Below, in pieces: positions 32,828-47,600 of a stretch of 64,000 bases of DNA. The position numbers and the translations under genes were made by a program. The DNA comes from an uncultured Pseudomonadota bacterium (GTDB lineage Bacteria; Myxococcota_A; Polyangia; Fen-1088), in the NCBI GenBank assembly GCA_963778795.1, contig CAVZVU010000001.1:1777574-1841573 (forward strand), in the 5' to 3' direction. Positions within the stretch are counted from its first letter, which is position 1. Each line of letters starts with the position of its first letter. The notes under the pieces were generated by a model. The model saw nothing but the letters and a program-made list of their open reading frames with translations. It had not been told where the DNA came from and made no database searches.

Positions 32828-35800
32828 TCAGGGGGCGGGCTTGGCCCCGCCGGGCCGCGCCTCCCCCGCAGGCGTCGAGGCCGGCGCGCCGGCGTGTCTA
32901 GCGCCGCCGGGGCCCGTCTCGGCCGCGCCCAGCGCGGCCATCATCCGCCGGAACAGGCTTCTGAAGCGCCGACGCCGTAGAAATCCCACCGGGAGCAGCG
33001 ACGAAACGATCAGCCAGCCGTTGCGCCGAACGAAATCCAGTGCAGCCAGCACCGGACTTGCCTCCAGGCGAATCGCGCCGATCGCGCCGTCGGCCCGCAA
33101 CAGCGACAGCTCCGCGCCACCGGGAGCGCTGTGAATCATGAAGTCGACGCGCGCCAGGCAGATCGGATCGCGGCAGGAAAAGCGCAGCGGGATCTCGCTG
33201 GCGATCGCCCCGTGCAGATCGACCTGAGTCTCTGTCGATGGTAGCAACCGGATGTCTTCCGGTCCGCTGCGGCCCGCGCAGGAGGTTCTCGTCGCTAGCA
33301 ACGTCACCGGCGCCCCATCGAAGATCGCCGCGGGGAGATCCAGCCGGTACGAGCAAGCGACGTCGTCGATGGTGATCGACCTACGCGCCACGCGTGCCAT
33401 CAGCTGGGTCGGCACCCGCCAAATTACGATCGCCGCCGCGACGACACAGGCCCAGATGAGGGCGTCGGGGACGGCGCGCCGTGGTGACTCCGGCGGCGGC
33501 TCGACGTTGCGCAGGATCCAGCGGCGCGCCAACGGGACGGCGATCCGTTCCCGCCCCCGGTCGCGTTCGATCAGCTGCAGCTGCTGGCAGCGCAGGAACG
33601 CGCGTTCCAGCTCTCCCGGTGGCGTGGTCGCTTCCCGCGGGACGCCGCGCATCGCGTGCACGGGGTTCCGAGGGGCGTCGCGCGCCACGATCGCCAGCAG
33701 CTTACGCTCGACCAGCGTCAGCCAGGCGAATCCGTCGAAGAGGCGCTGATCGGACGCCAGGGTGTCGAGCGCACTTTCGATGTCGGCGCGGGCGCCACTC
33801 ATAGCTCGCCGCCCCGCCGACTCGGTCGCCGCTGCGTGGTACCGGGCGGCGATCAGGCTGCAGAGCTTGCGAACCAGATCGATGTTGCCGTGGCACTCGC
33901 GTAGGATCCGTCGCATCATCCGCCGCGAGAACGCGAAATTGAGCTGCGTGCCGATCTGATTGACCAGTTCCTCGCCGAAGAGTGCATCGATTCCCCCGAT
34001 GCGCACCAGCGTGACCTTGTCGTAGAGGGGGTTTCTCCAGCCGTCGATCTCGGGCAGTTTCAGCAGGTAGGTGTGGACACCCGAGAGGAGCAGCCGCGCA
34101 CGCTTCGCGGCCAGAACCTCGGCCAGGAAGTCGAGAAACGCGCGGCAGGGCTCCGACTGGCGCTGCCCGTCAGCGCAACCGGCGATGATCCAGTCGACGT
34201 CCTCCAGCACCAGAACGACGCGGTGGTTCACCTCGTGCGGCTCGGGGCCGCGGAAGGACACGTCGCCCGCACGAATGGCGCGCCACCGGTCGGTCTTGGG
34301 CAGTCCCGCCAGCGGTATCGCCTTGGCCAGCTGGGTCGCGAAGGCTCCGAGGCGGCCGCTGAAGGCTCGGCCGCTTATCGTCTCGAAGACGGTGTCCTCG
34401 ACGCTGTACTCGGCTTGAGCGATCAGGCTGGTCTTTCCCGCGCCCGGCAACCCCGACAACAGCACTCCCGACCCCGGCTGGGCCAGCGCGCGGACGATGT
34501 CGCGCTGCTCGGCGCCCATGCCGATGTAGCGCTCCGGTTCGACGACGCCGCCCTTGTGGGTCGAATGAAATTCAATGAACCGGCTCTCGAACCATTTCCT
34601 CTCGCGGCGCTCGCCCAAGGCCCGCCGGATGTCGACGACCCAGCAGGGGACCACCAGCGCGTTGAACGCGCGTTCGAGATGAATCAGGCGTTCGCGCGCC
34701 CCTTTGCCCAGCGTGTCGAAGTCGGCTATGGCGAGCACGATCTTGCGCCGTTCCCGATCGAACCGGCGCAGCTTGGCGACCAGCGGCGACGCGCACGAGA
34801 GGAACGTCCTGGTCCCTAGCGGCGCGCCCTCGCCGATCTGGTTGCTTTCCGAGAGAAACACCGCCAGGAACTGATCGCTCGTGTGCTGCGAGAACTGGGG
34901 ATCGCTCAGCTCGACGACCCCGTCGCCGCCGGAGAGGACCCTCCCGAACAGGGAGGTCAGGAAGCGCGTGATGTCGGCGGTGTAGCTACTCAGGTGGTTG
35001 GGCACCGGGCCGATGACCGGCGCGGCAGGGCGGGGAGCCGCCTTCGCGCTCTCTACGTCGACCAGGTTCGCGCCCGGGATCACCATCGTCGCGCCCAGCG
35101 GGCGCCGCGCGAGGTCGGGACCCGAAGGTGAGGGGAGGGCGCGGCCGACCGGTGACGCCGCCGACGACGAGGCGAGCGGGGCGAAGAACCGCGGCTCACC
35201 CTTGCCCCAGGCCTCGCGCGTCGCGGACGAGGCAAAGGGCAACAGCGCGTCGGCGAAATCGGAGACCCGGGCGTAGCGACGTTGCGGTTCGTATTCCAGC
35301 GCACACAGGAGCCGGTTCTCGAGCTCTGCCGAGATCTCTTTCCGGTACAGCGTTGGGGGATCGATCGCACGGGACGCGATCCGCCGCAGGATCTCGTCGC
35401 CGCTGGTTCCACCGTGGACCGGCCGCCCCGTGAGGCATTCGATAGCGACCAGCGCCAGGTTGTACTGGTCGGTGCGCTCATCGATGTGTGGTGATCCGGC
35501 GGCCTGCTCGGGTGACATGTACGCGAGCGTGCCCATCGCGTCCATGCGCATGGTGCGCTCGACGCCCGCCGGTTGAGCCTCCCGCACCTTCGAGATCCCG
35601 AAGTCCAGCACCTTGGGCACCAGCACGCCGTCGCGCTGGACCACGACGATGTTGCCCGGCTTGATGTCCCGGTGAATGACCCCGACGGCGTGGCCCGCCA
35701 TGACAGCGGAGAAGACCGGCAGCAGAAGGTCGATCGTGAATTCGATCGACTTCAGGCCGTCCTGGACGAAGATCCGGTCGAGCGTCCGGCCCAGAAGCAG

Positions 35801-36136
35801 CTCCATCGCGATGAAGTGGTTGCCGTGCTCGTGGCCGGCGTCGTAAATCTCGACAACGTTGGGGTGCTTGATGCGCGAGGCGGCGACCCCCTCCAGCCGG
35901 AACCGGTCGATTGCTTGCGGCTGGATCAGGGATGGCGACAGCACCTTCAGCGCGACGTCGCGGTCCAGCTGGCGATGATGCGCCCGGTACACCGACCCCA
36001 TGCCGCCGGTGCCGATGTGGCCCAGGATCTCGTACGCCCCGAAGATGGTTCCGGGCTCGAATGCCGAAGGCCACCCCGGACCAGTATCGCCAGCCTCCAC
36101 GCACCCGATGCAATCGCAGGAGACTCGACGTGTCAA
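32828..36136 (-). CDS. Ser/Thr protein kinase fused to P-loop NTPase (AAA/STAND-like) regulatory region, PknK-type architecture; intact 1102-aa ORF
   Basis: Hanks kinase motifs GTGGMGSVYRA...ALKVL, HRDIKPGNIVV, DFGISK, AYMSPEQ. Then Walker A LLSGLPGAGKTSLIAQ and Walker B-like RVVLVLEDVDWI, a long helical C-terminus with a hydrophobic segment (LIWACVVAAAIVIW) and an Arg-rich tail. No frameshift, in contrast to neighbouring genes. Confidence 0.85.
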   Translation of the reverse strand: MTRRVSCDCIGCVEAGDTGPGWPSAFEPGTIFGAYEILGHIGTGGMGSVYRAHHRQLDRDVALKVLSPSLIQPQAIDRFRLEGVAASRIKHPNVVEIYDAGHEHGNHFIAMELLLGRTLDRIFVQDGLKSIEFTIDLLLPVFSAVMAGHAVGVIHRDIKPGNIVVVQRDGVLVPKVLDFGISKVREAQPAGVERTMRMDAMGTLAYMSPEQAAGSPHIDERTDQYNLALVAIECLTGRPVHGGTSGDEILRRIASRAIDPPTLYRKEISAELENRLLCALEYEPQRRYARVSDFADALLPFASSATREAWGKGEPRFFAPLASSSAASPVGRALPSPSGPDLARRPLGATMVIPGANLVDVESAKAAPRPAAPVIGPVPNHLSSYTADITRFLTSLFGRVLSGGDGVVELSDPQFSQHTSDQFLAVFLSESNQIGEGAPLGTRTFLSCASPLVAKLRRFDRERRKIVLAIADFDTLGKGARERLIHLERAFNALVVPCWVVDIRRALGERRERKWFESRFIEFHSTHKGGVVEPERYIGMGAEQRDIVRALAQPGSGVLLSGLPGAGKTSLIAQAEYSVEDTVFETISGRAFSGRLGAFATQLAKAIPLAGLPKTDRWRAIRAGDVSFRGPEPHEVNHRVVLVLEDVDWIIAGCADGQRQSEPCRAFLDFLAEVLAAKRARLLLSGVHTYLLKLPEIDGWRNPLYDKVTLVRIGGIDALFGEELVNQIGTQLNFAFSRRMMRRILRECHGNIDLVRKLCSLIAARYHAAATESAGRRAMSGARADIESALDTLASDQRLFDGFAWLTLVERKLLAIVARDAPRNPVHAMRGVPREATTPPGELERAFLRCQQLQLIERDRGRERIAVPLARRWILRNVEPPPESPRRAVPDALIWACVVAAAIVIWRVPTQLMARVARRSITIDDVACSYRLDLPAAIFDGAPVTLLATRTSCAGRSGPEDIRLLPSTETQVDLHGAIASEIPLRFSCRDPICLARVDFMIHSAPGGAELSLLRADGAIGAIRLEASPVLAALDFVRRNGWLIVSSLLPVGFLRRRRFRSLFRRMMAALGAAETGPGGARHAGAPASTPAGEARPGGAKPAP

Positions 36137-36161
36137 CCAGCGCGCGTCGAGCCCCCGGACG

Positions 36162-36452
36162 CTCCCGACACCGCTCCCAGGTTGATCTCCGGTCCCGACA
36201 CCGCACCCAGGTTGATCTCCGAGGCGGTCGCACGAAAGAACCGTCCGTCCGGACGGCCACTGTCCCGAATCCGGTCGGGCAGCGACGAGGAATCAACCGC
36301 TTAGGTGGATTCGTTCGTCCACTGGTCCAGACACGATCCGTGCCATACCTCGGAGCGACCTGGCTCGGAAATCAACCTGGGAGCGGCCGCACGAGCGGAA
36401 ATCAACCTGGGAGCGGCCGCACGCGCTGAAATCAACCTGGGAGCGGCGCACG
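36162..36452. repeat. inverted arrays of direct repeats: 2 x 29-bp (36162-36220) and 3 x 30-bp (36367-36452) sharing an inverted 20-bp core CCGCTCCCAGGTTGAT(C/T)TCC
   Basis: Left copies: tcccgacaccgctcccaggttgatctcc and ggtcccgacaccgcacccaggttgatctcc. Right copies: ggaaatcaacctgggagcggccgcacgagc x3. The reverse complement of the right core equals the left core. ~145-bp unique spacer. Located between the MFS gene stop (36480) and the kinase gene start (36136). Confidence 0.8.
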
Positions 36453-36479
36453 GGATCAAGAACCGGTGGCCGCAGGCGC

Positions 36480-37685
36480 CTAGTGAACACCGTCCTCGCG
36501 GGTCCTCACCGCTCGGAATTGGAACAGCAGCAGGAGATCGTAGACCGCTTTGAGCGCTCCCCCGATGACCAGGGGCCAACCGAAGGTCGTCTTCTCGAGA
36601 AGCACGCCGGTGATGAGGGGGGCGAGCCCGGCCGCCAGGCTGCGGGGCACGTTCGTCACGCTCGATGCGGCCGCGCGTTCTTCGGGCGGTACGACTGCCA
36701 TCACGAACGCCTGCCGGGCCGGGACGTCCATCTGGGAGACTGCCATCCGGAGGAGGAGGCAGGCGATGCTGAGTGGCGCGTTCGGCATCAGCGCCGCGAG
36801 GATCAGGAACAGGTTGGCGGGCAAGTGCGTGTAGACCATCGTCCGGATGAGGCCGATTCGGGCCGCCACGCGCGGCGACAGCACCTGGGAGAACGCGCTC
36901 AGGGTGCCGGCGACGAAGAACACCGCCGCGGTCGTCCGCTCGTCGAGGTGGAACCGGCGGTAGAGCCAGAGGACGAGCAGCGACTGGACGACGAAACCGC
37001 CGCCGAAGGAGTCGAGGCTGAACAGCGCCGCCAGGCGCAGCACGATGGCGCGTGACTCCGCCAGCGGACGCCCGGCCCGCTTCGCCGGATGGACCTCCAG
37101 CGCGGGCGAGAGCTGGGCGTAGATGATCGCTGCGACGATCGCGCACAGGGCGTAGAACACGAACACGCCTCGCTGCGCCCTGAGGAGCGCCACACCCCAG
37201 TGAGAGGCGACGAACGCCGGCACCCCGCTGGCAAGCGCGCCCACCGCCCCCGCCAGCGAGCCGACCAAGTTGTACCAGGCGAAGGCCATCGTCCGCGCGG
37301 GGCCGCTGACCGTGTGGGCGAGCGCAGCCTGCTCCGTTGGTAGGAACAGGCTGACGTCGCCGGAGGAAGGGTTCAGGGTTCCAGCGACCGCCACGACCAT
37401 CAGCGGCCAGAACGTCGTGAGCCCGGCAAAGCCGATCCCCGTGAGGAGCATCAGCGCCGCGGCGCCGAGCAGGATTCGCCGGCGCGAGAGACGGTAGCCG
37501 AGCAGCCCGACGCCGAGCGTGACGGCCGCCGAGCCCAGCAGGGTTCCGGTGACCAGCGCACCAACCTGGATCGCGCCGAACCCGAGCCCGGTCAAGTATG
37601 TGGCGAGAGCTATGCTGACGACGCCGTCGGCCAAGCCGCGGATGCCCCGCGTGAGGAAGACCTTGCGCGCGTCGGTCAACGCCAC
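36480..37685 (-). CDS. MFS transporter (12 TM)
   Basis: 401 aa with MFS-like hydrophobic periodicity (GIRGLADGVVSIALATYL...; ...FLILAALMPNAPLSIACLLLRMAVSQMDVPARQAFV). Intact ORF. Confidence 0.75.
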   Translation of the reverse strand: MALTDARKVFLTRGIRGLADGVVSIALATYLTGLGFGAIQVGALVTGTLLGSAAVTLGVGLLGYRLSRRRILLGAAALMLLTGIGFAGLTTFWPLMVVAVAGTLNPSSGDVSLFLPTEQAALAHTVSGPARTMAFAWYNLVGSLAGAVGALASGVPAFVASHWGVALLRAQRGVFVFYALCAIVAAIIYAQLSPALEVHPAKRAGRPLAESRAIVLRLAALFSLDSFGGGFVVQSLLVLWLYRRFHLDERTTAAVFFVAGTLSAFSQVLSPRVAARIGLIRTMVYTHLPANLFLILAALMPNAPLSIACLLLRMAVSQMDVPARQAFVMAVVPPEERAAASSVTNVPRSLAAGLAPLITGVLLEKTTFGWPLVIGGALKAVYDLLLLFQFRAVRTREDGVH

Positions 37686-37837
37686 CTCGACAGCTTACTT
37701 GCCCCCAAGACACCGCCGCGACACATCGCGGCCTTGCGGTCGCCACCCCGTTGAAGATTCGTCACTTTGGCAGGCGTATCCCCGGACTCTGCGCGCAAAG
37801 CCGGCACTTCGTGCGATGGCATGATCGTCGCAAAAAG

Positions 37838-38498
37838 ACCGGGTGACATGAAAACCATCACGCCCCGGCGCATCCGCCTCGCGTGCGCAGTGCTCATGAC
37901 CCTCATCGCGCTGCCTGCGCAGGCCCAAGAGGCCATCGCCGCCCCGCCCGACCCCGCCCTATCTGTTCGTCTGCGCGCGATGTTGCCGGTGACCAGTTTC
38001 ATGAACATCAACGCGGGCGGAACCGGCAGCCAGATTGGAGTCGGCGTCGCTGGGTTGTCGTTCGGTGCCGAGCTCTGGCACCTCTGGGCGGTCGAGGCGG
38101 GAGCGGGCGCGTGGTTCACGTCAATCTACGGGTTGGATACCGACCTCTTTGTGCGCTCCGGGGTTGCCCCGAGGATCGCCGATTGGCGGGGCCCGGATGG
38201 TCACGGATGGACGCTGCAATGCGATGCGCTCGCCGGATTCCGGCAGCAGAGCCGTTTCTTGTCGCCGGACGGACACGATGGCACCGAGGAGACCGAAGGC
38301 GTCACCGGCAACGTCGGCTTCGAGTGGGCGCGCTTCTCCTCTTCCCGGGGGGCATTGGTCCTTCGCCTGTTGACCGGGGTGACGGTGCCGGTGACGCAGA
38401 CGAGAACTGGCTACTGGGCGTCCCACAACTACATCGATCCCGCCGCCGACCTGCGATACCTGGTCGATCTGACGTTCACCGTCGGCGTCGCGTTCTGA
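37838..38498 (+). CDS. small outer-membrane beta-barrel protein (OmpA/OmpW-like barrel)
   Basis: Signal peptide MKTITPRRIRLACAVLMTLIALPAQAQEA, amphipathic strands, C-terminal ...DLTFTVGVAF. Confidence 0.6.
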
Positions 38499-38697: not shown

Positions 38698-40569
<1,872 letters not shown>

Positions 40570-41647: not shown

Positions 41648-44600
41648 CTATTGCCCCAGACCGGTGAGCATGATCGAAGGGAATCCGCCGGCGGTGGCGC
41701 TCACCTCCAGCGACGCCGTGCTCTGGACAGCGAGGCTGGGCAGGAACTGAACGTGAATCAGGCAGGTTTCGTTCTGGGCCAGCGCGGTCACCCCACCCAC
41801 GCAGTCGCCGTCATGGGGCACGATGGTGAAGTCGGCGTTGGGCGAGGCGAGGGTCACCGCGATCGGGGTGCTGGTCTGCTGGCCCGTGTTGGTGACGATG
41901 AACGCCTGCTCCACGGTCATCCCGATGGGAACCATGCCGAAGTCGATCGAGGACCCCGTATTGGGCGCCAACGTCAGCGCTGCTGGCGTCAGCGCGTTCG
42001 CTGACGCCGTGAAGGTCACCGATCCGCCCGTCGTCGCGGCCAGCGTCAGCATTCCGCTGCGCGCGCCCGCCGCCGATGGAGTGAACGAGACCTGAATCGT
42101 GCAGCTCGCGCCGCCCGGGAGCCCTACGGTGCAGTTGTTCTGACTGAAGGAAATCTCCCCAGGATCTCCGTTGGACAGCACGGGCGCGCTCGTTGCCAGG
42201 TCGCCCATGTTGATGACGGTCCAGGTCACCGGCATGCTGGGCGTGCCGACGACCGGCGTCAAGAAGTCGTGGCTGGTCGTGCCGGTCAGCAGCGCGGGGC
42301 GTTGGCCGGTGCCCGACAAGGACAGCGCTATCGCGTCGGTCCCGATGGCGGCGCTCGCGTTCAATGATGTGGTCTGCAGCCCCGAGCCCGGCGCCGTGAA
42401 GCTGACCTGAATCGTGCAGCTCAAGCCGCCCCCGAGCGAGCTGGGGGCGGTGGGACAATCCCCTGGGCCCGGCGTGACCAGCGCAAAGCCGAAGCCCGCC
42501 GCGGCCGACAGCGACACGGTCACCGCCGTGGCGGTCTGCTGGCCCGTGTTGGTGAGGACGAACGTCTGCGTCACCGTCGACGCGACCGGCACGTTGCCGA
42601 AGCTGGCCGAGGATCCGGTCGCGGGCGCCAGCGCCAGCGCCGCCGGCGTCTGGCCGGTCGCATTCGCGGTGAAGGTCAATGATCCGCCCGGTGACGCGGC
42701 CAGCGTTAGCGTGCCGCTGCGCGCCCCTGCCTGGGCCGGGCTGAACGACACGACGATGGCGCAGCTCGCCCCGCCCGCCAGCGCCACTGTGCAGTTGTTC
42801 GAGGCGACCAGCACCTCCCCAGGATCCCCGTTGGTCAGCGTCGGCATCCCGGTGGGAACGTCGCCGCCGTTGGTCACGGTCCAGGTCAGGCTGTCGCTGG
42901 TCGCGCCGACGACCAGCGTCCCGAAGTTGTTGCTGGTCATCCCGGTCAGCACCGCCGGGCGCTGGCCGGTGCCCGAGAGCGACAGCGGGGCGGCGGTGCC
43001 GCCGACCGCGGCGCTCGCGCCCAGCGCCGCCATCTGCAGGCCCGGCCCCGGCGCGGTGAACCTCACATGGATGGTGCAGCTCGCGCCGCCCGCCAGCGGG
43101 GCGGGCGTCGCGGGGCAATCCCCCGTGACCGGCGGGACCAGCGCAAACCCCGAAGTCGCGGCCGTGGTCAGCGTGACTGTCGCCACCCCCGTCGCCTGCT
43201 GGCCAGTGTTGGTGAGCACGAAGGCCTGCGTCACCGCCGCACCCACCAGCACGTTGCCAAACCCGGTCGAGGATCCGGCCGCGGGCGCCAAGGCGAGACC
43301 GGCCGCCGTCTGTCCGGTCGCGCTCGCGGTGAAGGTGACTGAGCCGCCCGGCGTCGCGGCCAGCGTCAGCATCCCGCTGCGTGCGCCCGCCGCCGCCGCG
43401 CTGAACGAGACCGCGATGGTGCAGCTGGCCCCGGGCGCAAGCGCCGCTGTGCAGGTGTTCCCGCTGACCAGCACCTCGCCCGGATCCCCGTTGGCCAGCG
43501 CCGGCACGCCCGTCGGAACGTCGCCGCCGTTGGTCACGGTCCAGGGCACACTCCCGCTGGTCGCGCCGACGACCACCGTTCCGAAGTTGTTGCTGCTGGT
43601 GGTGGCGGTCAGCAGCGCGGGGCGCTGGCCATTGCCGGAGAGCGACAAGCCGGGAGCGGTCCCGCCGACGCTGGCGGACGCGCCCAGCGTCGCCGTCTGC
43701 AGTCCCGCGCCCGGCGCGGTGAACTGCACATGGATGGTGCAACTGGCGCCGCCCGCCAGCGGCGCGGGAGTCGAGGGGCAATCCCCCGCGATCGGCGCCG
43801 CCAGCACGAAGCCAGAGGTCGCGGCGGTGGTCAGCGACACGGTCACCGCCGTCGTCGCCTGCTGGCCGGCGTTCGTCAGCACGTAGGCCTGCGTCGCCGT
43901 CGATCCGACCAGCACGTTGCCGAAGCTGGTCGAAGACCCGACCGCGGGCGCCAGGACCAACCCCGCGGCGGTCTGTCCCGTGGCGCTGGCGGTCAGGGTC
44001 ACCGTGCCGCCTGGAGATGCCGTCAGGGACAAGGTCCCGCTGCGCGCTCCCGCCGCCGACGGACGGAAGGAGACGCTGATCGTGCACTGACCGCCGCCGG
44101 GAATCGCCACGGTGCAGTTGTTCGCTCCGACGATGAGCTCGGGCTGGTTGCCATTGGTCAGCGCCGGTATGCCGGTCGCGGCGTCGCCGGCGTTGCTGAT
44201 CGTCCAGGTGAAGGCGCCGCTGGTCGCGCCGACGACAACCGTGCCGAAGTTGTTGGTGGTGGTGCCCGAGAGCGCCGCCGGGCGCTGGCCGTTGCCCGAC
44301 AGAGACAGCGGCGGGGCGGTGCCGCCGACGGTGGCGCTTGCACCGAGGGTCGCGGTTTGCAGTCCCGCGCCCGGCGCGGTGAACCTCACGTGGATGGTGC
44401 AGCTGGCGCCGCCCGCGAGCGTCGTGGTCGTGGTGCAGTCGCCGGTGACCGGCGCGACCACCGCGAAGCCGGAGGTTGCGGCGGTGGTCAACGTCACCGT
44501 CACCGCCGTCGTCGCCTGTTGGCCGGTGTTGGTGAGGACGAATGTCTGCGTGCCGGTGGCCCCCACCAGCACGTTACCGAAGCTGGCCGACGAGCCGGTC

Positions 44601-47600
44601 GCGGGCGCCAGCGCCAGCCCCGCCCCGGTCTGCCCGGTGGCGCTGGCGGTCAGGGTCACCGAGCCGCCGGGGGTAGCGGCGAGGGTCAGCGTCCCGGTGC
44701 GCGCCCCGGCGGCCGAGGGACGGAACGAAGCGCCGATGATGCACGTACCGCCGCCGGCGACCGCCACGGTGCAGGTGTTGGTGCCGACGATCAGCTCGGT
44801 CTGGTTGCTGTTGGTCAGCGCGGGCACGCCGGTGGCGACGTCGCCGGTATTGGTGATCGTCCAGGTGAAGGTGCTGCTGGTCGCGTTGACGACGAGGGTC
44901 CCGAAGTTGTTCGTCGTCGTGCCCGAGAGCAGCGCTGGGCGCTGGCCCCTGGCGGTCAGCGGCAGCGGTGTCGGCGTGCCGCCGGTGGCTGCACTGGCGG
45001 CCAGCGTGGCGGTCTGGCGCGCCTGCCGCCGCGGCGGTGAACCTGACCCGGATCGTGCAGCTCGCGCCTCCGGCCAAGATGGTGGTGCCGGTGACGCACT
45101 CGCCGGTGGTCGGGGCCACCAACGCAAATCCGGAGCCGGTGGCGGTGGTCAGCGTCACCGTCACCGGCGTCGTCGCTTGCTGTCCGCTGTTGGTGAGCAG
45201 GTAGGTCTCGACCACGTTGCCGGCGACCAGCACGTTGCCGAAGTTGGTCGACGAACCGGTGGCCGGCGCCAGCCCCAGACCGGCGGCCAACTGTCCGTCG
45301 GCGGTCGCGGTGAACGTGACCGATCCACCGGGCGACGCCGTCACCGTGAGCGTACCGGTGCGCGAGTTCATGCCCGACGGACGGAACGCCACGCCAATCA
45401 TGCAGCTCCCGCCGCCGGCGATGGGCCCGGTGCAGCTGTTCGAGGTGACGAGGACCTCGACCGTGTTGCTGTTGGTCAGCATCGGCTGGCCGGTCATGAC
45501 GTCGCCGCTATTGAAGATGGTCCAGTTGGCGGTGCCGGTGGTGTTGCCGATGACCACCGTGCCGTAGTTGTTGCTGTTCGTGCCGGTGAGCGCGGACACC
45601 CGCTGCCCGCCGCCGGTCAACCCCAGCGTGGCGGTTCCGCCGGTGGTCGCGCTCGCGCCCAGCGTCGCGCTCTGCGTCCCCGCCACGGTCGGCGCGAAGC
45701 GGACGCGCACGCTGCAGCTGCCACCGCCGGGCAGCGTGGTCACGCCGTTCATGCACTCGCCGGTGACCGGCGCGCAGCAGCGTGAACCCCGAGCCCGCGG
45801 CGGAGCTCAGCGTCAGCCCGATCGCCGACGTGGTCTGGTCGCCGGTGTTGTTCACGACGAAGGTCTTGTCGGAGGTCGAGCCGACCAGCACGTTACCGAA
45901 CGCCGTCGACGAGCCGCTGGCCACCGTCACGGCGAGCCGGGCGATGTTCTGTGCGGCGCCGGAGAACGCGGCGACCGCCGCGCCGCCGGGCGTGGCGCTG
46001 ACGCTCAGGCTGGCGGTCTTGTTGCCCGCCGACTTGGGCGCGAACGCCACGACGACCATGCAGGTGCTGCCGCCGGGCAGCGCGCCCGCGCAGTTGCTGG
46101 TCACGATCGTGAAGTCGCTGGCGTTGGCGCCGCCAAGGGCCGCGGCCAGCGCGGTGCCGCTGCCCGCCGGCACGCCGCCGGTGTTGGTCACCGTGATGGT
46201 CTGGTTGGCGCTGGTCGCGCCGACCAGCGTGCTGGGGAAGGTGAAGGCGGTCGGATTGGCGACCAGCGACGCCGAGGCGAGGCCGGTTCCGGTCAGCGAG
46301 ACCGTCGTCGTGCTGCCCCCGCGTCGCCGCGAACTGCAGCGTGCCGCTCATGGGACCGGGCGCCGTCGGCGCGAAGCGGACGGTCACCGAGCAGGAGGTG
46401 GAGGGCGCCAGCATCATCGTGTTGCAGCCGTTGGTGACGATCGCAAACACCGTCGAGCCGACGATGCTCGCGGTGACCGGTCCGGTCGTCGACTGCCCGG
46501 AGTTGCTGACGGTGAAGGTGGCCACCTGGCTGACCGTGCCCTGCTCGACGCCGCGGAAGTCGAATGACGGCACATTCGGCGTCAGGACCCCGGGGGTGAG
46601 CCCGATGCCCGAGAGGCTCGCGGTGGTCATGCCGCCAGCCGTGGCGCTCACGGTGAGCGTCGCCGCCTTTGCCCCCATCGACGTCGGCGCGAAGCGGACG
46701 AGGATCATGCAGCTCCCTTTGCCCGGGATGGCCGCGGTGCAGCCGTTGCCGCCCGCCGGGATCGAGAACTGCGCGCTGTCGGCGCCGCCGATGGTCACGC
46801 TGGGCACCGAGCTGGGGATGTCACCGTCGTTCGTAGACCTGGAACGGGACGGTGGGGCTCGCACCAACCGTCACGGAGTTGAAGTTGTTCGTGGCGGGCG
46901 ACAGCCGCAGCGCGGGATTTGCCAGCGACGTCCCCAAGAGCTGGGCCGTCGCCGTCCCCCTCCCAACTCCGTCAGCGAGAGCGTCGCCAGTTTTGTCCCC
47001 GGCGTCGTGGGCACGAACTGAACCGTCAGCGTGCAGGTGGCATTGGCGACCAGCGTCTTGCCCGTACAGGTGTCGCCGGTGAGGATGGTGAAGTCGGGGG
47101 TCGACATCGCCGGAAGCAACGTCGCGGTTGGCGCCTGACCGCTGTTCGTCGCCGTGAACTGCTTCGAGCTCCCGGGCAGGCCTTGTTGCACCGATCCAAA
47201 ATCCCACGGGCTGGGCGTCAGGACGACCAAGCTCTTGGTGACGGACGAGCCCGAGAGCTGGGCGACGGCGCTGCCGCCGGGGTCGGCGGAGACCTGGAGC
47301 GACACCGATTTGTTGCCCAGGCTGGTGGGCACGAAGCGCGCGGTGATCTGACAGGTCTGCATAGAGGCGAGGATCTGGCCCTTGCACCCGTCAGCGGTGA
47401 TCCCGAAGTTGGGCGCGTCGGCGCCGACCAGCGACGCCGCCGCGATCATGCCGCTGATGCCCTCGCCGGTGTTCTTCACCGTGAATGTCCGGTCGATGCT
47501 GTTCGCCGGCATGACCACCAATCCGAAGCTCTGCGTGAGCGGATCGATCGTCAGCGTTCCGGGCGTGATCCCCTCGCCCAGCAGCGACGCCACCGCATCG

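What the first reader, a model, noticed from the sequence alone, without database searches (positions are those of the whole stretch)
36162..36452. Inverted arrays of 20–30-bp repeats (2 copies / ~145-bp spacer / 3 inverted copies) upstream of the kinase–NTPase gene
Core CCGC(T/A)CCCAGGTTGAT(C/T)TCC occurs twice in direct orientation, then three times in the opposite orientation as contiguous 30-bp units without spacers. This is not CRISPR-like; the layout resembles multi-site transposon ends (Tn7/Mu-type left/right end repeats) or a tiny non-autonomous element. Alternatively it could be a high-order operator for an oligomeric regulator controlling the adjacent kinase.
Basis: seen in the sequence. 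Interest (0 to 1): 0.65.

Follow-up and report, generated by a model that had tools for sequence, protein, structure and literature searches.

The report
Gene-less mini transposon with reiterated ends
The inverted repeat arrays are the duplicated ends of a small, gene-less mobile-type element found in many soil bacteria, and the same end sequence flanks genes for an apparently unclassified branch of single-strand-DNA (HUH/tyrosine) transposases, so it is not a dedicated switch for the neighbouring kinase.

Summary
Five copies of (G/A)ATCAACCTGGG(A/T)GCGG sit in exact 30-bp units: two at 36160-36219 and three inverted at 36366-36455, around a 146-bp core. Chance expectation is 0.18 copies.

The feature is not unique to this site. 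The same 11-18-nt core occurs in arrays in 40 or more loci, mainly from Myxococcota, Acidobacteria and Planctomycetota assemblies.

In 11 motif-selected loci, and in 4 of 4 loci chosen by protein alone, the core flanks a ~300-aa gene. It lies antisense upstream and sense downstream, which is the layout seen in the window.

The encoded protein has the HUH and Y---NP motifs. It is weakly RAYT-like by NCBIfam, and its best fold match is the E. coli RAYT structure 4ER8.

The window element lacks the gene. Its 146-bp core is conserved in 21 other copies from other genomes and metagenomes, beside unrelated genes.

The 30-bp units do not fold as hairpins, so they are not REPs. The closest described kind is the TIRtron/TIRYT.

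Verdict: a non-autonomous, REPIN/MITE-like element of a Y1-transposase family that is missing from the classifications I could read. Mobilisation in trans is inferred, not shown. No empty site, target-site duplication or in-genome transposase could be checked.

The parts
36160..36219 (-). Kinase-proximal end: two 30-bp units, each carrying the core GATCAACCTGGG(A/T)GCGG on the minus strand.
36220..36365 (-). 146-bp internal module. Its forward strand is the minus strand of the window. It is conserved in 21 other copies from other genomes and metagenomes.
   Evidence: nhmmer E-values 1e-36 to 1e-39. Alignments. Metagenome copies. The window copy is 78% identical to the L071 and L064 copies.
36330..36344 (-). 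Conserved box/hairpin 1, GGCACG-gat-CGTGTC. Preceded by T it reads TGGCACG, which resembles a sigma-54 -24 box.
   Evidence: It is paired in 19-21 of 21 copies but through sequence conservation only. The -12 position reads GTGT rather than TTGC.
36289..36298 (-). Internal degenerate half-core GGTTGATTCC, preceded by a conserved CTAAC.
   Evidence: Consensus of 21 copies.
36242..36277 (-). Conserved bipartite hairpin 2: CGaCCG...GGACaG-TGG-CCGTCC-GGACGGACG. It contains the 12-bp palindrome CCGTCCGGACGG at 36245-36256.
   Evidence: There are no compensatory changes.
36366..36455 (+). MFS-proximal end: three contiguous 30-bp units, each with the core AATCAACCTGGGAGCGG on the plus strand. The third unit has a 1-bp deletion.
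32828..36100 (-). Neighbouring gene, not part of the element: Ser/Thr kinase with a P-loop NTPase region. The called start is GTG at 36100.
   Evidence: Pfam Pkinase E 1e-35 and AAA_16 E 6e-6, the latter below the curated cut-off. P0249 is 1090 aa at 100% identity, and no other full-length homologue was found.
36480..37685 (-). Neighbouring gene, not part of the element: MFS transporter. Its stop codon lies 25 bp from the element.
   Evidence: Pfam MFS_1 E 6e-28. Homologues are listed.

Best explanation
Window 36160-36455 is a 296-bp non-autonomous element comparable to a MITE or REPIN. It has terminal inverted repeats of about 22-30 bp built around the core AAATCAACCTGGGWGSGG, and a conserved 146-bp internal module with two potential hairpins. 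In this copy the terminal unit has been tandemly duplicated, three times on one side and twice on the other, at a 30-bp period.

The same core flanks genes for a ~300-aa HUH/Y1 tyrosine transposase related to RAYT/TnpA-REP. It has the same inverted orientation there and is often reiterated, from 1 to 14 or more copies.

The most likely mechanism has three steps. A Y1 enzyme of this clade, encoded elsewhere in the genome, recognises the core. It cleaves and rejoins one DNA strand there through a covalent tyrosine intermediate, as IS200/IS605 and RAYT enzymes do, and so disperses gene-less copies without a target-site duplication. Strand transfer or slippage between neighbouring cores produces the tandem reiteration.

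Shown here: the repeat anatomy, the family-wide link between core and gene, the conservation and dispersal of the mini-element, and the HUH/Y fold and motifs of the protein. Inferred: catalysis at the core, mobilisation in trans, the origin of the tandem copies, and any effect on kinase expression.
For: 1. The motif is real and local, with 5 copies against 0.18 expected.
2. A genome scan for two cores 27-33 bp apart found 49 loci, where I estimate fewer than 1 expected by chance for 22 fixed bases. Forty of these carry the core followed by A/T, and the extended consensus is rAAATCAACCTGGGWGsGG.
3. Eleven of the 49 loci have a homologous ~300-aa ORF directly next to the arrays. The core is always antisense upstream and sense downstream of the gene.
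4. Independent test: in 4 of 4 loci chosen by protein homology alone, core copies lie on the minus strand upstream and the plus strand downstream of the gene. Three of the four include exact 11-mers; in L052 the copies carry two mismatches.
5. Protein: NCBIfam REP_Tyr_transpos at E 1e-7 to 8e-15. hhalign against E. coli RAYT aligns HHH with HMH and Y120 with the catalytic Tyr, E 2.6e-4. The AF2 model has pLDDT 76.6, and its best Foldseek PDB match is 4ER8 (RAYT-REP complex, E 4.7e-5), followed by the ISDra2 and IS608 TnpA structures.
6. The gene-less element with the same 146-bp module occurs in 21 further copies. These lie beside unrelated genes, and pairs on the same contig are 87% identical with different flanks.
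7. Many family proteins sit on 1-2-kb contigs, as expected if assemblies break at repeats.
8. There is no duplication of 5 bp or more at the ends, which fits HUH chemistry.
Against: - No Y1 gene lies in the 64-kb window, and the rest of the source genome could not be read. A cognate enzyme in this organism is therefore unproven.
- No empty site was found. The closest relative shares only the MFS gene, and the kinase has no orthologue.
- The 146-bp module was never seen next to a Y1 gene.
- Copies are only 57-88% alike, so recent movement is not shown.
- The units are not hairpins, whereas characterised Y1 enzymes recognise hairpins. The hairpins in the module show no covariation.
- The protein scores below the curated RAYT cut-off, and the Pfam Y1_Tnp match is only E 0.05.
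Confidence: 0.75

Rival explanations
1. The arrays form a high-order operator or enhancer for an oligomeric regulator that controls the adjacent kinase-NTPase gene. The 30-bp spacing would place the sites on one face of the helix.
For: The element lies 59 bp upstream of the kinase start codon and fills most of the intergenic space. The 30-bp period is close to three helical turns. The module contains a TGGCACG box resembling a sigma-54 -24 element.
Against: The same element occurs beside PBP, NUDIX, ADH, FG-GAP, beta-helix, AurF and Lcl_C genes and never beside another kinase. Orientation relative to neighbouring genes is about random, 11 against 8. The -12 position reads GTGT rather than TTGC. 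No sigma-70-type promoter or terminator was found. In the family, copy number varies from 1 to 3 per side.
Confidence: 0.05
2. It is a MITE derived from a DDE transposon with multi-site ends (Tn7/Mu/Tn402/IS21 type). The repeats would be transposase-binding sites on double-stranded DNA.
For: There are several directly repeated sites per end in inverted arrangement, with unequal numbers at the two ends (2 against 3), as in Tn7, Mu and IS21 (my own knowledge of those elements).
Against: Clustering of ORFs within 2.5 kb of the arrays recovered only the Y1 family as a recurrent neighbour. The ends do not read TG...CA. There is no 5-bp duplication. One locus (L054) has a weak DDE_Tnp_1 fragment nearby, but it lies outside the repeat-flanked unit.
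Confidence: 0.04
3. It is a fossil or host-maintained repeat that no longer moves. It would persist because it serves a structural or RNA-level role such as transcript punctuation, mRNA stability or nucleoid binding, as proposed for REPs, and the Y1 enzyme would be domesticated.
For: Copies are diverged (57-88%). All copies seen are intergenic. Blocks of the module are conserved across genomes at the sequence level. The whole intergenic region would fold strongly if transcribed, with z = -9. RAYT systems are argued to be domesticated (PMC5581495, abstract).
Against: There is no Rfam match and no covariation. No terminator-like site was found. Core arrays also invade a coding region in L002, which looks more like selfish behaviour than a host function.
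Confidence: 0.12
4. The 146-bp module is the functional cargo, either a small RNA gene or a portable promoter, and the repeats only delimit it.
For: Conserved blocks include a perfect TGGCACG box, and G-T pairs kept in hairpin 1 would be G-U pairs in RNA. In the window the module points toward the kinase.
Against: There is no Rfam hit, no compensatory changes, no orientation bias, and no canonical -12 GC.
Confidence: 0.04

Closest known systems
TIRtrons / TIRYT (TIR-associated tyrosine transposases; Di Nocera et al. 2013, PMC3733652; subclass 2.1 of Quentin et al. 2018, PMC6006769)
   Same: A Y1 HUH gene is flanked by non-palindromic terminal inverted repeats. Copies of those repeats are dispersed in the genome as singles, dimers or clusters. 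The Y-motif has the class-2 form Y---NP.
   Different: The published TIR consensus is GGGGWSAS, whereas here the core is AAATCAACCTGGGWGSGG. Published TIRYTs carry HTH or DnaA_C-like tails and NHVH or NH[YF]H motifs; here the motif is NHHH, with a ~160-aa tail that has no Pfam match. The ends here are tandemly reiterated up to 14 or more times. The mini-element carries a conserved 146-bp module.
REP/REPIN-RAYT systems (REPtrons)
   Same: The transposase-like gene is flanked by inverted copies of the repeat. Gene-less inverted doublets are dispersed in intergenic DNA. The protein's best fold match is E. coli RAYT 4ER8, and tandem clustering occurs as in BIMEs.
   Different: The units are not palindromic, with DNA folding z-scores from -1.8 to +1.2 and +0.7 for the window units. 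There is no GTAG or CGTC tag. The element is about 215-300 bp rather than about 100 bp. The protein is twice as long and scores below the NCBIfam RAYT cut-off.
IS200/IS605 insertion sequences
   Same: The protein has the HUH/Y1 fold. No target duplication is seen. On one strand the module has one potential hairpin near each end, which recalls the subterminal LE and RE hairpins.
   Different: The Y-motif is Y---NP rather than Y---Q. The protein is about 300 aa rather than about 150 aa. There is no tnpB partner. True terminal inverted repeats are present, which IS200/IS605 elements lack.
Tn7/Mu/IS21-type multi-site transposon ends
   Same: Several direct repeats per end, inverted between the two ends, with unequal numbers.
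   Different: No DDE transposase is associated, the termini are not TG/CA, and there is no 5-bp duplication.

Membership tests
REP / REPIN (RAYT-associated) | The unit is a 20-40-nt imperfect palindrome that folds as a hairpin. | tested here: not met
   18 unit types were folded as ssDNA, giving z-scores from -1.8 to +1.2. The window units gave z = +0.7.
REP / REPIN (RAYT-associated) | A conserved GTAG (or CGTC) tetranucleotide at one end of the unit. | tested here: not met
   The unit sequences contain neither tag.
REP / REPIN (RAYT-associated) | The same repeats flank a single Y1 gene in inverted orientation (the REPtron layout). | tested here: met
   Met for the family: 11 motif-selected loci and 4 of 4 protein-selected loci. 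Not testable for the source genome itself.
REP / REPIN (RAYT-associated) | The protein reaches the curated RAYT model score. | tested here: not met
   NF047646 scores 31.5 and 55.1 bits against a cut-off of 80. The fold and motifs do agree.
TIRtron / TIRYT | A Y1 gene bracketed by non-palindromic terminal inverted repeats, with dispersed extra copies of those repeats. | tested here: met
TIRtron / TIRYT | TIR motif GGGGWSAS and an HTH-type C-terminal tail (subclass 2.1). | tested here: not met
   The core differs. There is no Pfam HTH or DnaA_C hit. None of the published TIRYT sequences shares the NHHH or FPAGTYW motifs.
TnpA-Y1 class 2 (Quentin et al. 2018) | An HuH motif plus the Y---NP motif. 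| tested here: met
   H60-H61-H62 and Y120-x3-N124-P125 are invariant in 26 sequences. They align to the E. coli RAYT motifs.
IS200/IS605 | A core-only TnpA of about 150 aa with the Y---Q motif, subterminal hairpins and no TIRs. | tested here: not met
   The protein is about 300 aa with Y---NP, and TIRs are present.
Tn7/Mu-type multi-site ends | An associated DDE (TnsB/MuA-like) transposase, TG...CA termini and a 5-bp target duplication. | tested here: not met
   The only recurrent neighbouring gene is the Y1 family. Termini are shown, and there is no duplication of 5 bp or more.
MITE (generic) | A short, gene-less, multi-copy element with TIRs, whose TIRs are shared with an autonomous element. 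| tested here: met
   22 copies, with the TIR core shared with Y1-bearing units. The usual target duplication is absent.
Known RNA families (Rfam 15) | A match to a covariance model. | tested here: not met
   No hit at E<=1 across 35000-38000 on either strand.
Mobility of this copy | Presence/absence polymorphism at an orthologous site. | not testable with these tools
   The relative L050 is not syntenic beyond the MFS gene. The kinase has no orthologue. The source contig could not be retrieved.

The most novel reading that the evidence does not exclude
This would be the first recognised member of a large, unclassified clade of Y1/HUH enzymes (more than 4,500 homologues, HuH = NHHH, a novel ~160-aa tail). 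The clade would differ from every characterised Y1 transposase in recognising a sequence-specific, non-hairpin core of 12-18 nt. That core is conserved across phyla, it amplifies in tandem at element ends, and it even occurs inside coding regions. The associated mini-element would carry a conserved two-hairpin module that supplies either the single-strand recognition structure or a portable regulatory signal.
Probability: 0.3. Interest if true: 0.65.

Novelty: new variant of a known kind. Interest (0 to 1): 0.55.

Why it matters
**What changes for this locus.** The feature is a dispersed, probably selfish or semi-domesticated repeat, not kinase-specific regulation. Annotation pipelines should mask such repeats in high-GC soil bacteria. 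They evidently break metagenome assemblies, because many of the associated genes sit on 1-2-kb contigs.

**Why it could matter more widely.** It points to a large set of HUH tyrosine enzymes with a strictly conserved DNA core and no hairpin in the repeat unit. If the enzyme does cut that core, it would extend the known recognition modes of Y1 transposases. It would also add a compact, sequence-specific single-strand nicking and joining enzyme, the type already used for covalent protein-DNA tagging.

**The tandem ends.** Tandem growth of the ends, and their occurrence in frame inside a CHAT-domain gene, suggest a route by which such elements reshape intergenic and coding DNA.

Tried and rejected
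- **Known RNA families.** An Rfam scan of 35000-38000 at E<=1 found nothing.
- **Promoters and terminators.** The sigma-70 promoter and intrinsic terminator scans found none.
- **RNA fold of the intergenic region.** The z-score of -9 only reflects the inverted arrays.
- **REP-like units.** Rejected, because the units do not fold better than shuffles.
- **Covariation in the module hairpins.** There is none; the pairs are kept by sequence identity and substitutions often break them.
- **Sigma-54 promoter.** The -24 box is perfect but the -12 reads GTGT, and there is no orientation bias. Left as a minor possibility.
- **Coding repeats.** The ORFs that cross the arrays (for example 36301..37746) are read-throughs typical of high-GC DNA. 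A real MFS gene ends at 36480.
- **Empty site.** The closest MFS relative is not syntenic. The kinase has no orthologue. Window proteins are not on record for contig look-up.
- **Source organism.** The cluster look-up returned no names.
- **Origin of the 146-bp module.** It was not found in the flanks of Y1 genes.
- **Literature.** A string search for the core returned only unrelated primer matches. No paper in the held library describes this family.

Full report
**1. The observation**

The repeats are present as described.
- Tandem Repeats Finder reports two arrays of period 30: 36163-36221 (2.0 copies, 96% match) and 36366-36452 (2.9 copies, 94% match).
- The repeat finder places the units at 36160-36219 and 36366-36455. 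It reports the arrays as inverted arms of 53 nt, 83% complementary and 140 nt apart.
- The 17-mer AATCAACCTGGGAGCGG, allowing up to 3 mismatches, occurs five times in the 64-kb window, all in this feature. The chance expectation is 0.18, and no shuffle out of 100 reached five.
- About 21 bp of each unit, CCGC(T/A)CCCAGGTTGAT(C/T)TCCG, are shared between the two arrays. The other 9 bp are specific to each array.

**2. Setting**

The window is high-GC DNA at about 64-72% GC. The element lies between two genes on the minus strand.
- An MFS_1 transporter occupies 36480..37685.
- A protein with a Pkinase domain and a weak AAA_16 region starts at GTG 36100, according to the identical database protein P0249 of 1090 aa.
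- MFS homologues that carry names are from Polyangia, and the closest mini-element relatives come from Polyangia and Myxococcota assemblies. The source is therefore probably a myxobacterial MAG. The organism could not be named.

**3. The motif is not unique to this site**

A scan of one genome per species for two cores 27-33 bp apart (22 fixed bases; I estimate fewer than one chance hit) returned 49 loci.
- Aligning 200 exact cores gives the extended consensus rAAATCAACCTGGGWGsGG, with variable sequence between cores.
- Forty loci have at least two copies of the core followed by A or T.
- Nine loci look like unrelated coding or microsatellite repeats.
- Periods vary from 25 to 46 bp, and copy numbers reach 20 or more per 8 kb.

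**4. The associated gene**

I clustered all ORFs within 2.5 kb of the arrays. One family of about 300 aa recurred across loci; the second cluster is its antisense shadow. tblastn finds this family in 11 loci: L004, L006, L009, L012, L019, L020, L027, L032, L036, L046 and L047.

In every case the core is antisense upstream of the gene and sense downstream, giving [CCCAGGTTGAT]n - gene - [ATCAACCTGGG]n. The window's plus strand shows the same layout with 146 bp in place of the gene.

As an independent test I picked four family members by protein similarity alone and fetched their contigs. All four have core copies on the minus strand upstream and on the plus strand downstream of the gene. Three of the four include exact 11-mers; in L052 the copies carry two mismatches. 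Two of these elements, L054 and L006, carry the same 17-mer as the window.

**5. What the protein is**

- Pfam finds nothing above noise; the Y1_Tnp match is E 0.05.
- NCBIfam's REP-associated tyrosine transposase model matches residues 5-138 at E 1e-7 to 8e-15, which is below the curated cut-off.
- Twenty-six family members share an invariant H60-H61-H62 and Y120-x3-N124-P125.
- hhalign against E. coli RAYT aligns these residues with its HMH motif and its catalytic tyrosine (E 2.6e-4).
- An AlphaFold model with pLDDT 76.6 has as its best PDB match 4ER8, the E. coli RAYT-REP complex (E 4.7e-5). The next matches are the ISDra2, IS608 and IS200 transposases.
- The family is large, with more than 4,598 hits at E<=1e-5. 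Sources name it only 'putative transposase' or 'RayT', and many members sit on 1-2-kb contigs.

The Y---NP motif places the family in class 2 of the TnpA-Y1 classification (PMC6006769). Three features match none of the listed subclasses or the published TIRYT sequences: the NHHH motif, the length, and the ~160-aa tail ending in FPAGTYWLRRF.

**6. The gene-less element is a family of its own**

The 146-bp interior of the window element is conserved in six further genome loci: L007, L010, L024, L025, L033 and L048 (nhmmer E 1e-36 to 1e-39). These come from at least three other assemblies. It is also conserved in 16 metagenome contigs found with an independent pattern.

The 22 copies share these blocks:
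- a left inverted repeat;
- TGGCACGgATyGTGTC;
- CTAAC..GTTGATTCCTCGTCG;
- a bipartite hairpin, CCGTCCG...GGACGGTGGCCGTCCGGACGGACGG;
- a right inverted repeat.

Other properties of the copies:
- The inverted repeat extends about 10 nt outward and about 9 nt inward of the core.
- Each side has one to three units, so the basic element is about 215 bp. The window copy is an expanded one.
- Flanking genes are unrelated to one another: PBP, NUDIX, ADH, FG-GAP, beta-helix, AurF and Lcl_C.
- Two copies on the same contig or in the same genome are 87% identical with different flanks. The window copy is 78% identical to its nearest relatives.
- None of these copies is next to a Y1 gene, and the module is absent from the flanks of Y1 genes.

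**7. What it is not**

- The 30-bp units and 16 other unit types do not fold as hairpins better than shuffled sequence, and they lack GTAG. They are therefore not REPs.
- The module's two hairpins are possible, but they are kept by sequence identity and show no compensatory changes.
- There is no Rfam match and no sigma-70-type promoter or terminator.
- The TGGCACG box lacks a -12 GC, and the module shows no orientation preference toward neighbouring genes (11 against 8).
- No DDE transposase recurs near the arrays.
- The window copy has no flanking duplication of 5 bp or more.

**8. Mechanism**

The best-supported reading is a non-autonomous element. Its ends are the recognition, and presumably cleavage, sites of a Y1/HUH enzyme of this clade that acts in trans.

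Established knowledge of IS200/IS605 TnpA and E. coli RAYT is that they cut and rejoin single-stranded DNA through a 5'-phosphotyrosine link and make no target duplication (PMC3333891, PMC3479197). The absence of a duplication here fits that chemistry.

In single-stranded DNA the two ends of the mini-element can pair with each other, with 53-nt arms, as the two REPs of a REPIN do. This could supply the structure that the individual units lack.

Three observations fit repeated strand transfer or slippage between neighbouring cores:
- each tandem unit contains exactly one core;
- unit length varies between loci;
- duplications can include adjacent sequence, such as the 66-bp unit in L048 and the 116-bp unit in L053 that includes the start of the gene.

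All of these mechanistic steps are inferred, not shown.

**9. Limits**

No empty site could be found, because the closest relative shares only the MFS gene, with DNA homology stopping 10 bp past its stop codon, and the kinase has no orthologue. Mobility of this copy, and its effect on the kinase, therefore remain open.

**10. Comparison and novelty**

The closest described kind is the TIRtron/TIRYT of Di Nocera et al. (PMC3733652), followed by REPtron/REPIN systems. The concept is known: a Y1 gene bracketed by repeats that also occur as dispersed gene-less doublets. Four things appear new relative to the papers I could read:
- this protein clade;
- its long, sequence-specific core that is conserved across phyla;
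- the tandem reiteration of the ends;
- the conserved 146-bp module of the mini-element.

I rate it a new variant of a known kind, of moderate interest.

Noticed in passing
L002:502-600 and L002:1759-2005: In an Acidobacteria MAG, core copies lie inside a 957-aa ORF whose sequence looks like a TPR plus CHAT-domain protein (domains not checked against Pfam). They are read in frame as (A/T)NQPGSS repeats with 30- and 108-bp periods. Four more copies straddle the 3' end of that ORF. The motif therefore also occurs within coding sequence.
   Followed up: partly
L027:1721-2243: At least 14 tandem copies of the variant unit AAATCAACCTCGGTGCGGTGCACGG lie downstream of a Y1 gene. The variant reads CCTCGG in place of CCTGGG. 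The mini-elements in the same genome use a different subtype, so several subfamilies coexist in one genome.
   Followed up: partly
L053:2836-3060: A 116-bp tandem duplication contains the upstream core, the 5' leader and the first ~50 nt of the Y1 gene. Similarly, L048 has a 66-bp duplicated unit that includes hairpin 1.
   Followed up: no
window 32828-36100: The kinase-NTPase protein has no full-length homologue among 5.8 billion proteins other than its own record. All other hits cover only the kinase domain, about 25% of the protein. Its C-terminal 800 aa are lineage-specific.
   Followed up: partly
window 36470-37686 compared with L050: The closest relative (MFS protein 94% identical, DNA 90%) shares only the MFS gene. 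Homology ends 10 bp after the stop codon and at the start codon. The gene therefore sits in a different context, next to TamB/Omp85 in the relative.
   Followed up: partly
window 36329-36345 (minus strand): A TGGCACG box is invariant or nearly so in 21 copies of the mini-element. It matches the sigma-54 -24 element, but the -12 position reads GTGT.
   Followed up: partly
window 41648-45127 and 38698-40569: A 1159-aa protein is built of about 100-aa repeats resembling Ig or CARDB domains. A second Ser/Thr kinase gene lies close by. This gene content is typical of myxobacteria.
   Followed up: no
L008, L026, L029, L031: The same 11-mer occurs as short-period tandem arrays of 11, 14 or 15 bp in Actinomycetes and Alphaproteobacteria assemblies, with no Y1 gene in view. 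These may be unrelated microsatellites or collapsed versions of the same repeat.
   Followed up: no
L054:4206-4715: A PhdYeFM/YoeB toxin-antitoxin pair and a DDE_Tnp_1 fragment lie immediately downstream of one Y1 unit, which suggests a mobile-DNA hotspot.
   Followed up: no
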